Shown here one piece after another: positions 23,067 through 28,173 of a DNA stretch of 64,000 bases. Numbering within the stretch: position 1 is the first letter of the stretch; each line of letters begins with the position of its first letter. This DNA comes from a virus. Both the position numbers and the translations under genes were made by a program. The stretch is taken from positions 26,250-90,249 of the IMG/VR virus record IMGVR_UViG_3300027852_000031. One strand, 5' to 3'. The notes beneath the pieces were generated by a model. It saw only the letters and a program-made list of their open reading frames with translations. It was not told where the DNA came from and ran no database searches.

Positions 23067-23286
23067 CACAACGGCTTTCGAAGATAATGAGATTGTTGTT
23101 ACATATCAAGATACACCAGAATTAAGACAACGTGTTTTTGAAAAGGTGTTGGATTGGTTCAAATACAAACAATTTTTTAGCGGCGAATCAGTTATGCAGT
23201 GTGATCCCAGATTTGAATCTGGTCATGATTTACTCTGTGATATAGTCGACGATATTTTCCAATTTGATGTTCAGAATAAAGAATAA
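23050..23286 (+). CDS. Hypothetical protein
   Basis: 78-aa ORF overlapping the previous stop. Confidence 0.6.
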   Translation: MKNENNTTAFEDNEIVVTYQDTPELRQRVFEKVLDWFKYKQFFSGESVMQCDPRFESGHDLLCDIVDDIFQFDVQNKE

Positions 23287-23312
23287 TTATTTGAAACAAA
23301 ATGGATGAATGT

Positions 23313-23321
23313 GTGTATAAT
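23313..23321 (+). promoter_or_regulatory. GTGTATAAT promoter for candidate small RNA
   Basis: TATAAT at 23316-23321, 7 nt before the GC-rich segment that starts GGA at 23328. Confidence 0.65.
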
Positions 23322-23327
23322 ATAAAT

Positions 23328-23425
23328 GGACGGTGTGGTGAGCAGGCGTCAAAGTCAAGTCACGTCATCCTTGCGCGTCGTTCGCTACCTTAGTGACCGG
23401 GGGTCTATTCGACCCCCGCTTTTTT
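23328..23425 (+). ncRNA. Candidate small RNA or riboswitch-like leader
   Basis: GC-rich and non-coding; stem GTGGTGAGC/GTTCGCTAC; four GTCA repeats in its loop; terminator CGGGGGTC-tattc-GACCCCCG followed by T6. Confidence 0.6.
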
Positions 23426-23469
23426 GTTCACGATGAACAGATGTAAAGTATTTAATCTGGAGTATTTAT

Positions 23470-23778
23470 GTGCGATGGTATGTATTGTTACCATTGGTTG
23501 TTTTGGTCATATCATTGGGGGATCTTTATGCCACCTTATATTGTAATAAACATTTCGTAAAATTCGAAGAAGCAAACCCGATAGCTAAATATGTCTGGGA
23601 TCGCCACGGCGATTCCGGAATAGTTGTTTTTAAGGTTGCCATCACTTTGGTGTCGTGCGCTTGTATGTGGTGGGTGCTTAGGTATAAGAACAAACGGTGG
23701 ATGATTGCTATATGCATATTTATTCAGATATCTTGCCTACTCCTTGTCGGATGGTGGATTTTGTGGTTTTTAAGTTGA
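23470..23778 (+). CDS. Small membrane protein (DUF5658-like)
   Basis: Three hydrophobic segments; DLYATLY...EEANPIAKYV matches the D..T...E.NP pattern of that family. Confidence 0.6.
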   Translation: MRWYVLLPLVVLVISLGDLYATLYCNKHFVKFEEANPIAKYVWDRHGDSGIVVFKVAITLVSCACMWWVLRYKNKRWMIAICIFIQISCLLLVGWWILWFLS

Positions 23779-27947: not shown

Positions 27948-28020
27948 TGCGGGGTAGAGCAGTGGTTAGCTTGTCTGTTTCATAAGCAGAAGGTCGTCAG
28001 TTCGAATCTGACCCCCGCTA
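27948..28020 (+). tRNA. tRNA-Met(CAT), initiator-type body with atypical anticodon stem
   Basis: Full cloverleaf: acceptor TGCGGGG/CCCCGCT, D stem GAGC/GCTT, anticodon arm TCTGT-TTCATAA-GCAGA, T arm GTCAG-TTCGAAT-CTGAC, A73; no encoded CCA. Confidence 0.93.
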
Positions 28021-28026
28021 TTTGTT

Positions 28027-28173
28027 GACGATGGTAAGTGCTGATTTGTTAGGGTGGCACGCAACAGGAGTTGGCTGTACGGCGGGGTGTTCCGATTCAA
28101 CCGCCATGCCAAAATCAGGACCATAGGGCAAAAGTATATGCACGGAACTGTTGTTCGAATCAACCCATCGTCG
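28027..28173 (+). ncRNA. tRNA-like RNA with 8-bp acceptor stem, 4-bp T stem and ~115-nt structured interior
   Basis: GACGATGG/CCATCGTC, GTTG-TTCGAAT-CAAC, U8-A9 equivalents, G discriminator, then a T-rich run; 6 nt after tRNA-Met. Confidence 0.65.

What the first reader, a model, noticed from the sequence alone, without database searches (positions are those of the whole stretch)
23313..23425. Self-contained ~98-nt RNA with four GUCA repeats and a possible pseudoknot
Seen: TATAAT, then GGA at the expected +1 (23328); 9-bp stem 23335-23343/23380-23388 with G-U pairs; the enclosed region reads cGTCAaaGTCAaGTCAcGTCAt; GTCAC (23359-23363) can pair with GTGAC (23393-23397) outside the stem, giving an H-type pseudoknot; a strong terminator follows. 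It is far more GC-rich than its flanks. Known: ToxI antitoxins are pseudoknots, phage phiTE uses pseudo-ToxI, and CsrB-type sponges present repeated motifs. Inference: a decoy or antitoxin RNA for a GUCA-recognising protein or RNase, or a new riboswitch controlling the downstream membrane gene. I recognise no Rfam family.
Basis: partly seen in the sequence, partly recalled or inferred. Interest (0 to 1): 0.72.

Follow-up and report, generated by a model that had tools for sequence, protein, structure and literature searches.

The report
Phage RNA antisense to 23S rRNA
A phage gene makes a folded RNA of about 95 bases whose most conserved part is the antisense copy of a universally conserved stretch of the bacterial large-subunit ribosomal RNA; similar antisense pieces end late transcripts in at least two unrelated phage groups, which suggests an undescribed way for phages to contact the host ribosome.

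Summary
The element is real. A phage promoter motif (GTGTATAAT), a G start at 23328 and a strong terminator (23398-23425) bracket a non-coding RNA. It is conserved in 27 distinct sequences from related uncultured phages.

- The four GUCA repeats are unique to this phage (relatives have 0-3).
- The 9-bp stem is not the conserved fold.
- The pseudoknot shows no covariation.

Covariation instead supports helices P1 and P2b plus the terminator, followed by a free 3' tail.

The main result is new. The conserved 3' half is antisense to 23S rRNA domain IV (E. coli nt 1919-1937 and about 1958-1978). The most divergent homologue matches best (z=12.5).

The antisense 17-mer for 23S 1924-1940 occurs in 24 non-rDNA viral contigs. 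Two control 23S 17-mers gave 1 hit each. The hits include T4-like phages, where the element lies just after the major head gene, and a third group where it lies next to tRNA genes. It almost always sits 10-18 nt before a terminator.

No Rfam family and no paper describes this, and the scan had not noted it on other DNA. The best reading is an RNA that pairs with 23S rRNA of free or immature 50S subunits. That function is inferred, not shown.

The parts
23313..23321 (+). Promoter-like motif GTGTATAAT (-10 TATAAT at 23316-23321)
   Evidence: Invariant upstream of all 27 homologues. There are 15 copies on the + strand of the genome against 6 on the - strand, mostly intergenic in the late region.
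23328..23425 (+). Predicted small RNA, about 98 nt (the +1 is inferred from promoter spacing; the 3' end lies in the T-run)
   Evidence: Conserved from +1 to the T-run. Loop indels are not multiples of three, so it is non-coding. G-U pairs and the T-run fit the + strand only.
23328..23333 (+). P1 5' strand, pairs with 23378-23383
   Evidence: 99% paired, and 3 of 6 pairs have changes on both sides. L014 carries three compensatory changes, L004 one, and L036 a paired insertion.
23342..23349 (+). P2 (GCA) and P2b (GGCGU) 5' strands; together with 23350-23351 also antisense to 23S 1827-1836
   Evidence: P2b is 99% paired with 2 compensatory pairs. The 10-nt antisense match is shown. The P2 register is unresolved.
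23350..23361 (+). Variable hairpin loop holding most of the GUCA repeats
   Evidence: Its length varies from 6 to 18 nt and its sequence is not conserved.
23362..23377 (+). P2b 3' strand, 5-nt bulge, P2 3' strand and linker; an imperfect antisense of 23S about 1958-1976
   Evidence: Local alignment of the reverse complement to E. coli rrlH. Relatives have an exact 9-11-nt antisense block to 1968/1970-1978. The window carries one substitution in that block.
23378..23383 (+). P1 3' strand
   Evidence: See P1. In L014 this strand changed in a way that lengthens the 23S match.
23381..23393 (+). Exact 13-nt antisense block to 23S rRNA 1925-1937; nt 23384-23393 lie in the free tail and form the proposed toehold
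   Evidence: This is the best 23S site for the tail in 14 of 16 distinct tails. The target segment is upper-case, meaning near-universal, in the Rfam bacterial LSU consensus.
23395..23399 (+). Further 5 nt antisense to 23S 1919-1923, after a 1-nt bulge
   Evidence: Not conserved in all relatives.
23398..23425 (+). Intrinsic terminator (8-bp GC stem, 5-nt loop, T-run)
   Evidence: 98% paired, and 7 of 8 pairs have changes on both sides.
23470..23778 (+). Downstream DUF5658 small membrane protein gene, linked to the RNA and probably expressed by read-through
   Evidence: Pfam PF18902. It lies directly after the RNA in every locus that has the gene. Protein identity is 36-54% while the RNA core is near invariant.

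Best explanation
This is a stand-alone phage small RNA of about 95 nt. It is transcribed from a phage-specific GTGTATAAT promoter and ended by a strong intrinsic terminator.

It folds into a closing helix P1 and an inner hairpin (P2/P2b) with a variable loop. A free tail of about 14 nt lies between P1 and the terminator.

The tail and the 3' strands of P1, P2 and P2b together form an antisense copy of 23S rRNA domain IV. In E. coli numbering this covers 1919-1937 and about 1958-1978, that is the base of H69, the H70 region and the H71-to-H67 linker, with the H71 hairpin left out.

Proposed mechanism (inferred): the free tail nucleates pairing with 23S nt 1925-1934 in free 50S subunits or late assembly intermediates. 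Pairing can then spread by opening P1 and P2b. The RNA would so occupy a subunit-interface segment next to the H70 loop.

My preferred consequence is shielding of that segment from host RNase toxins that cut the H70 loop in free 50S subunits. This would fit the neighbouring island of RNA ligase, macrodomain, Panacea and tRNA genes. Holding back or hijacking 50S subunits is about equally possible.

Read-through of the terminator would express the DUF5658 gene.

Shown here: conservation, fold, strand, antisense identity, and recurrence of the same antisense block in other phage groups. Inferred: transcription, pairing with rRNA in the cell, and the consequence of that pairing.
For: Conservation and fold:
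- 27 distinct homologues carry an invariant promoter motif and a covarying terminator.
- P1 and P2b are supported by compensatory changes.
- Independent single-sequence folds in 24 of 27 members recover them.

Antisense identity to 23S:
- The window has a 13-nt exact antisense match to E. coli 23S 1925-1937.
- The gapped antisense alignment spans 1919-1978 with about 20 nt deleted.
- Alignment z-scores against shuffles: L014 12.5, L036 7.6, L006 4.2, L042 3.8.
- L014, the most divergent member, has exact blocks of 14, 13 and 11 nt, all at the same junction.
- L014's covarying P1 strand follows the 23S sequence.
- The sense orientation gives nothing.

Recurrence in other phages:
- The antisense 17-mer for 1924-1940 gives 25 hits in IMG/VR, of which only one is rDNA.
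- Two control 23S 17-mers gave 1 hit each.
- In 18 of the 24 non-rDNA hits a terminator starts 10-18 nt after the block. In all 24 the neighbouring genes are mostly on the strand that makes the block antisense.
- T4-like phages carry two invariant antisense blocks amid variable flanks, just after the major head gene.
- A third group displays the block in a hairpin loop.

Target:
- The target segment is near-universal in bacteria.
- MazF-mt3 and MazF-mt6 cut the adjacent H70 loop (UUCCU) in 50S but not in 70S particles (PMC5408214). This shows that the region is accessible in free subunits and is a known toxin target.
Against: - There is no transcript or interaction data; everything is sequence inference.
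- For the window sequence alone the 23S match is marginal: z 2.1, 12 of 300 shuffles. 13-mers shared with the rrn operon occur about a dozen times by chance in this genome.
- L009 shows no significant match at DNA level, although its tail still pairs using G-U.
- Duplex energies of the tails are only modestly better than those of shuffled tails.
- In the main clade several conserved positions depart from perfect antisense. Another constraint, from the fold or from a protein, must therefore also act.
- In mature ribosomes the target takes part in tertiary structure.
- Most family members do not cover the toxin motif (1939-1943) itself.
- The host is unknown.
Confidence: 0.45

Rival explanations
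1. The 23S similarity only records the origin of the gene, a captured and inverted rDNA fragment. Today the RNA works through its fold, for example by binding a protein, and does not pair with rRNA.
For: The main clade has drifted from perfect antisense at conserved positions, whereas the outgroup L014 is nearly perfect. The fold is under clear selection. Tail duplex energies are not far above those of shuffled tails.
Against: The same 23S segment is presented on three unrelated scaffolds in unrelated phages, with the blocks invariant amid variable flanks. Control 17-mers are not enriched. Relics would not recur or stay invariant. The observed tail substitutions are mostly ones that keep G-U pairing with 23S.
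Confidence: 0.2
2. It is a cis-acting leader (riboswitch or attenuator) that sets read-through into the DUF5658 membrane-protein gene. The ligand could even be free 23S or 50S.
For: The RNA lies directly upstream of the gene in every locus that has it. The start codon is about 13 nt after the T-run, which leaves no room for another promoter. The gene never occurs without the RNA in the loci held.
Against: Inspection found no sequence able to compete with either terminator arm. The RNA is intact with promoter and terminator where the gene is absent: L002 is followed by a gp5.9-like gene and L015 by a lipoprotein-like ORF. The other two phage groups carry the antisense block with no DUF5658 gene nearby. 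The linkage may be plain synteny among relatives.
Confidence: 0.15
3. It is a bridging (splint or clamp) RNA that holds cut 23S rRNA ends together for the neighbouring RNA ligase, as part of an rRNA repair kit.
For: An RNA ligase with an N-terminal OB domain (PF09414 and PF21189), a macrodomain, a tRNA-Met and a tRNA-like RNA lie within 5 kb. The same synteny is seen in relatives. The two antisense arms flank the H70 loop, which MazF-type toxins cut.
Against: The arms do not bridge the known cut site; they leave about 20 nt looped out. The other two phage groups show no ligase next to the element in the DNA held. Ligase linkage may be synteny only.
Confidence: 0.08
4. One reading: a decoy, sponge or ToxI-like antitoxin RNA that presents GUCA repeats to a protein or RNase.
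For: The four GUCA form a non-random cluster in this one genome. The promoter-RNA-terminator-gene order resembles type III toxin-antitoxin loci (own knowledge).
Against: The repeats are absent from homologues and lie in a loop of variable length and sequence. There are no tandem repeats. The downstream gene is not an RNase.
Confidence: 0.03
5. It is a DNA-level element, for example an rDNA-like target or decoy site for a homing endonuclease, or a patch of homology with host rrn operons.
For: The minus strand resembles the 23S rDNA region that rDNA homing endonucleases such as I-CeuI recognise (own knowledge, not tested).
Against: Covariation with G-U pairs, the promoter and the T-run all point to an RNA made from the + strand. 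In the other groups the match does not extend into 1911-1919, and the orientation relative to transcription is constant.
Confidence: 0.04

Closest known systems
Trans-acting antisense small RNAs of bacteria and phages (seed-pairing sRNAs)
   Same: Own promoter, intrinsic terminator, about 100 nt, and a conserved single-stranded stretch complementary to a target.
   Different: The complementary target is a ribosomal RNA rather than an mRNA. The complementarity is long and comes in several blocks, part of it masked in the RNA's own helices. I found no described family.
ToxI and other type III antitoxin RNAs
   Same: The order promoter, RNA, terminator, protein gene. A pseudoknot is possible.
   Different: No tandem repeats. 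The downstream gene encodes a DUF5658 membrane protein, not a ToxN-like RNase. The repeated GUCA motif is not conserved.
Eukaryotic and archaeal rRNA-complementary guide or chaperone RNAs (U3, U8, C/D box sRNAs; own knowledge)
   Same: Small RNAs carrying stretches complementary to conserved rRNA segments, acting on immature rRNA.
   Different: No C/D or H/ACA boxes were seen. It is phage-encoded and in a bacterial-type expression context. No partner proteins are known.
Ribosomal-protein mRNA leaders that mimic rRNA
   Same: A short RNA whose conserved sequence derives from an rRNA site.
   Different: Those copy the sense strand to bind a protein. This RNA is the antisense strand in its single-stranded tail.
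Plant-virus 3' translation elements that bind the large ribosomal subunit (e.g. the TCV T-shaped structure; own knowledge)
   Same: A viral RNA element near the 3' end of a transcript that contacts the large subunit. In the T4-like group the block lies just after the major head gene.
   Different: Those act by tRNA-like shape, not by Watson-Crick pairing with rRNA. They belong to a different domain of life.

Membership tests
Any Rfam 15 family | Covariance-model match at or near the gathering score | tested here: not met
   Only tRNA-Met reached the gathering score in the window. The best local hits had E 1.8-4.5 and scored far below gathering. The elements in other phage groups also gave no hit.
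Type III antitoxin (ToxI-like) | Tandem direct repeats processed into units | tested here: not met
   Tandem Repeats Finder reported 0 rows at 23200-23500. The four GUCA are absent from homologues.
Type III antitoxin (ToxI-like) | Adjacent endoribonuclease toxin gene | tested here: not met
   The downstream gene is PF18902 DUF5658, a small membrane protein.
Type III antitoxin (ToxI-like) | Pseudoknotted RNA unit | tested here: inconclusive
   The proposed pseudoknot is 90.7% paired but broken in about 5 lineages and lacks real covariation.
CsrB-type protein sponge | Multiple conserved copies of a short binding motif | tested here: not met
   GUCA copy number is 4 in the window and 0-3 (median 1) elsewhere.
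Transcription-terminating riboswitch or attenuator | Conserved structured domain upstream of a terminator and a gene | tested here: met
   P1/P2b plus terminator directly before the DUF5658 start codon.
Transcription-terminating riboswitch or attenuator | Mutually exclusive antiterminator pairing with a terminator arm | tested here: not met
   Reading alignment A5 showed no conserved complement to either arm. Single-sequence folds keep the terminator.
Transcription-terminating riboswitch or attenuator | Constant association with one gene family | tested here: inconclusive
   Present before every DUF5658 gene held, but also without it in L002 and L015.
Trans-acting antisense sRNA | Own promoter and terminator, non-coding | tested here: met
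   By sequence only.
Trans-acting antisense sRNA | Conserved accessible stretch complementary to a defined target | tested here: met
   The tail is antisense to 23S 1925-1937. The tail is unpaired in the consensus fold.
Trans-acting antisense sRNA | Demonstrated pairing and effect on the target | not testable with these tools
   Needs RNA-seq, crosslinking or genetics.

The most novel reading that the evidence does not exclude
Phages of several unrelated lineages carry a previously undescribed class of RNA elements. These are stand-alone sRNAs or 3' ends of late mRNAs that base-pair with the universally conserved H69-base/H70 segment of 23S rRNA in free 50S subunits. They would either shield the H70 loop from host RNase toxins or capture 50S subunits for phage translation. 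The window's RNA would be one structured member of this class.
Probability: 0.3. Interest if true: 0.92.

Novelty: categorically new. Interest (0 to 1): 0.8.

Why it matters
No phage RNA directed at ribosomal RNA is described in Rfam or in the papers I could search. If the pairing is real, it adds a new layer to phage-host conflict over the ribosome, alongside phage tRNAs, RNA ligases and antitoxins.

The target is near-invariant in bacteria, so one short RNA could work in any host.

The observation also gives a simple rule for finding more such elements: an antisense rRNA block a few nucleotides before a terminator. The prediction can be tested directly in E. coli with standard ribosome biochemistry.

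Even if pairing is not the function, this is a well-supported new RNA family with a covariation-backed fold.

Tried and rejected
- Rfam at gathering and permissive thresholds gave nothing.
- Nucleotide searches of cultured phages with the locus and with the group 2 and 3 elements gave no match, or tRNA similarity only.
- A search of cultured phages with 23S 1911-1986 returned rDNA contaminants and short hits at chance level (E 0.2-8; Jilinvirus and Sextaecvirus looked at). I do not count these.
- An exact loop pattern and the upstream 262-aa protein found no relatives in IMG/VR.
- The DUF5658 protein alone found no homologues by word index. The alignment did.
- A search for complementary targets inside the phage genome found only chance-level 9-10-mers.
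- A small-peptide reading of the RNA was rejected because loop indels break the frame.
- The window's long MFE stem was rejected as the family fold.
- The pseudoknot was kept only as possible.
- Six pattern hits in GC-rich coding DNA from the metagenome scan were discarded as chance.
- The 10-13-nt antisense match to 23S 1827-1838 is largely forced by internal pairing with the other strand, so I do not count it as independent evidence.
- The tRNA-like RNA at 28027-28173 shows no rRNA complementarity.
- Four literature searches for phage RNAs complementary to 23S found nothing relevant.

Full report
WHAT IS THERE.
- GTGTATAAT lies at 23313-23321 and a G at 23328.
- There are four GTCA between 23348 and 23367.
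- A GC-rich hairpin at 23398-23418 is followed by six T.
- The stretch is a GC island: 0.48-0.50 against 0.30-0.37 around it.
- No Rfam family matches and there is no tandem repeat.

The window is part of a 166-kb IMG/VR virus record. The element sits in a late, structural region, after the tail-tube gene and some small ORFs. Downstream lie genes for a DUF5658 membrane protein, a Panacea protein, a phosphoribosyltransferase, an RNA ligase and a macrodomain protein, followed by a tRNA-Met. GTGTATAA occurs 15 times on the + strand of the genome, mostly between genes. It therefore looks like a phage promoter motif.

HOMOLOGUES. Searching IMG/VR with the tail-tube protein gave 20 related loci. Thirteen of them hold the element. 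The DUF5658 family gave eight more loci, all with the element directly upstream. A pattern scan of metagenomes added further copies. In all there are 27 distinct sequences.
- The promoter motif is invariant in these sequences.
- The terminator covaries: 7 of 8 pairs have changes on both sides.
- Loop indels are not multiples of three, so the element is non-coding.
- The RNA core is far better conserved than the adjacent protein, which is 36-54% identical.

FOLD. Three helices are supported.
- P1 pairs 23328-23333 with 23378-23383.
- A short P2 and then P2b (23345-23349 with 23362-23366) form the inner hairpin.
- The terminator is the third helix.

Overall 98.7% of cells are paired and 12 pairs have changes on both sides; 0 of 500 shuffles reach this. 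That alignment was fitted to the model, but the MAFFT alignment gave the same picture.

The most telling cases are L014 with three compensatory changes in P1, L004 with one, and L036 with a paired insertion. Single-sequence folds recover P1, P2b and the terminator in 24 of 27 members. The window is one of the exceptions. The register of P2 is unresolved.

The pseudoknot is possible but not supported. The GUCA cluster is non-random in this genome, yet relatives have 0-3 copies and the loop that holds it varies from 6 to 18 nt.

LINK TO THE DOWNSTREAM GENE. In most relatives the DUF5658 start codon lies about 13 nt after the T-run. That gene must therefore be reached by read-through. It never occurs without the RNA in the loci held. 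The RNA, on the other hand, is intact in L002, where a T7 gp5.9-like gene follows, and in L015. I found no antiterminator pairing.

ANTISENSE TO 23S rRNA. The invariant tail reminded me of 23S rRNA, so I fetched E. coli rrlH to check.
- Window 23381-23393 is an exact antisense match to 23S 1925-1937.
- The reverse complement of the RNA aligns to 1919-1978 with about 20 nt, the H70 loop and the 5' side of H71, left out.
- For the window alone this is marginal: z 2.1, and 13-mers shared with the rrn operon are common by chance in this genome.
- The family settles it: L014 z 12.5, L036 7.6, L006 4.2, L042 3.8, with 0-1 of 300 shuffles reaching the observed score.
- L014, the outgroup, has exact blocks of 14, 13 and 11 nt at one junction. 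Its deletion boundary differs, and its covarying P1 strand follows the 23S sequence.
- The sense orientation gives nothing.
- The target is upper-case, meaning near-universal, in the Rfam LSU consensus, and it is mostly unpaired there.
- G-U pairs in P1, the T-run and the promoter all place the RNA on the + strand, so it is antisense to 23S and not a mimic of it.

A WIDER CLASS. The antisense 17-mer for 23S 1924-1940 gave 25 hits in IMG/VR. Only one is rDNA. Two control 17-mers from equally conserved parts of 23S gave one hit each.

The 24 non-rDNA hits fall into these groups:
- Group 2 is T4-like myophages. The element lies just after the major head gene and before gp3-like, UvsY and UvsW genes. 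Two blocks are invariant amid variable flanks, antisense to about 1964-1975 and about 1921-1943.
- Group 3 shows the block in the loop of a hairpin at the stop codon of a Lon-like protease gene, next to tRNA genes.
- Several hits are single sequences, one of them directly after a tRNA.

In 18 of the 24 a terminator starts 10-18 nt after the block. In all 24 most neighbouring genes are on the strand that makes the block antisense. Cultured phages gave nothing above chance.

MECHANISM. I take the RNA to be a discrete sRNA whose free tail nucleates pairing with 23S nt 1925-1934. The rest of the antisense sequence is masked in P1 and P2b and becomes available by strand exchange.

The target lies at the subunit interface. 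The adjacent H70 loop is cut by MazF-mt3 and MazF-mt6 in 50S but not in 70S particles (PMC5408214). The region is therefore reachable in free subunits and is a known toxin target.

Shielding that site, or holding back or capturing 50S subunits, are the two consequences I consider most likely. Both are inference. A splint role for the neighbouring ligase, a cis-regulatory role for the DUF5658 gene, and a relic of rDNA capture remain open; they are set out under rivals.

NOVELTY AND CAVEATS. I found no Rfam family and no paper describing phage RNAs complementary to 23S rRNA. The paper library is incomplete. There is no expression or binding evidence, the host is unknown, and the main clade departs from perfect antisense at conserved positions. 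Earlier notes of this scan mention the small RNA only as part of the island and do not mention the rRNA relation.

Noticed in passing
whole genome G000; window 4062, 6664, 11161, 20599, 20979, 23313, 32167, 34230, 53454, 57660 and others: GTGTATAA, often preceded by TT or TG, recurs 15 times on the + strand, mostly just upstream of genes in the structural region. It is probably the phage's late promoter motif.
   Followed up: partly
L070:499-660, L076:2380-2541 (-), L080:5895-6056, L072:4437-4598 (-), L073:2286-2447 (-): In T4-like myophage contigs an element with two invariant blocks antisense to 23S (about 1964-1975 and 1921-1943) lies between the major head gene and a terminator. In L072/L073 it has its own TATAAT after an upstream terminator.
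   Followed up: partly
L069:937-1093, L074:1300-1456, L083:5003-5159 (-), L088:772-928: A third phage group displays the same antisense block (23S 1920-1940) in the loop of a hairpin that overlaps the stop codon of a Lon-like protease gene. A terminator follows, and a tRNA gene lies about 95 nt further on.
   Followed up: partly
L079:14417-14539: A viral contig holds a 123-nt piece 84% identical to 23S 1917-2039, including H71, with no full rRNA gene in the DNA held.
   Followed up: no
L071:5569-5661 (-): The antisense 23S block starts one base after the 3' end of a phage tRNA gene and is followed by a terminator-like hairpin.
   Followed up: no
L022:13402-13511: A more distant relative has a minimal version: the promoter motif, the P2/P2b hairpin and a terminator, but no P1 and no tail (CM E=0.03).
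   Followed up: no
L002:6385-8764; L034:576-3571: In some relatives the RNA lies between an NAD-dependent DNA ligase gene and a T7 gp5.9-like RecBCD-inhibitor gene, in keeping with an accessory, counter-defence island.
   Followed up: partly
window 23411-23420 and 28010-28019: The 3' arm of the terminator shares 10 identical bases with the 3' end of the phage tRNA-Met. Relatives have other terminator sequences, so this is probably chance.
   Followed up: partly
window 23354-23370: The GUCA-rich loop of this phage shares 9-mers, sense and antisense, with 16S rRNA 1186-1201, which is a partly palindromic stretch. These are not conserved in relatives.
   Followed up: partly
L094 (Enterobacter phage Arya), L096 (ECO1230-10), L095 (Staphylococcus phage DH5): Cultured phages have intergenic stretches resembling 23S H70-H71, including 17 identical bases in Jilinviruses, but the E-values (0.2-2) are compatible with chance.
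   Followed up: partly
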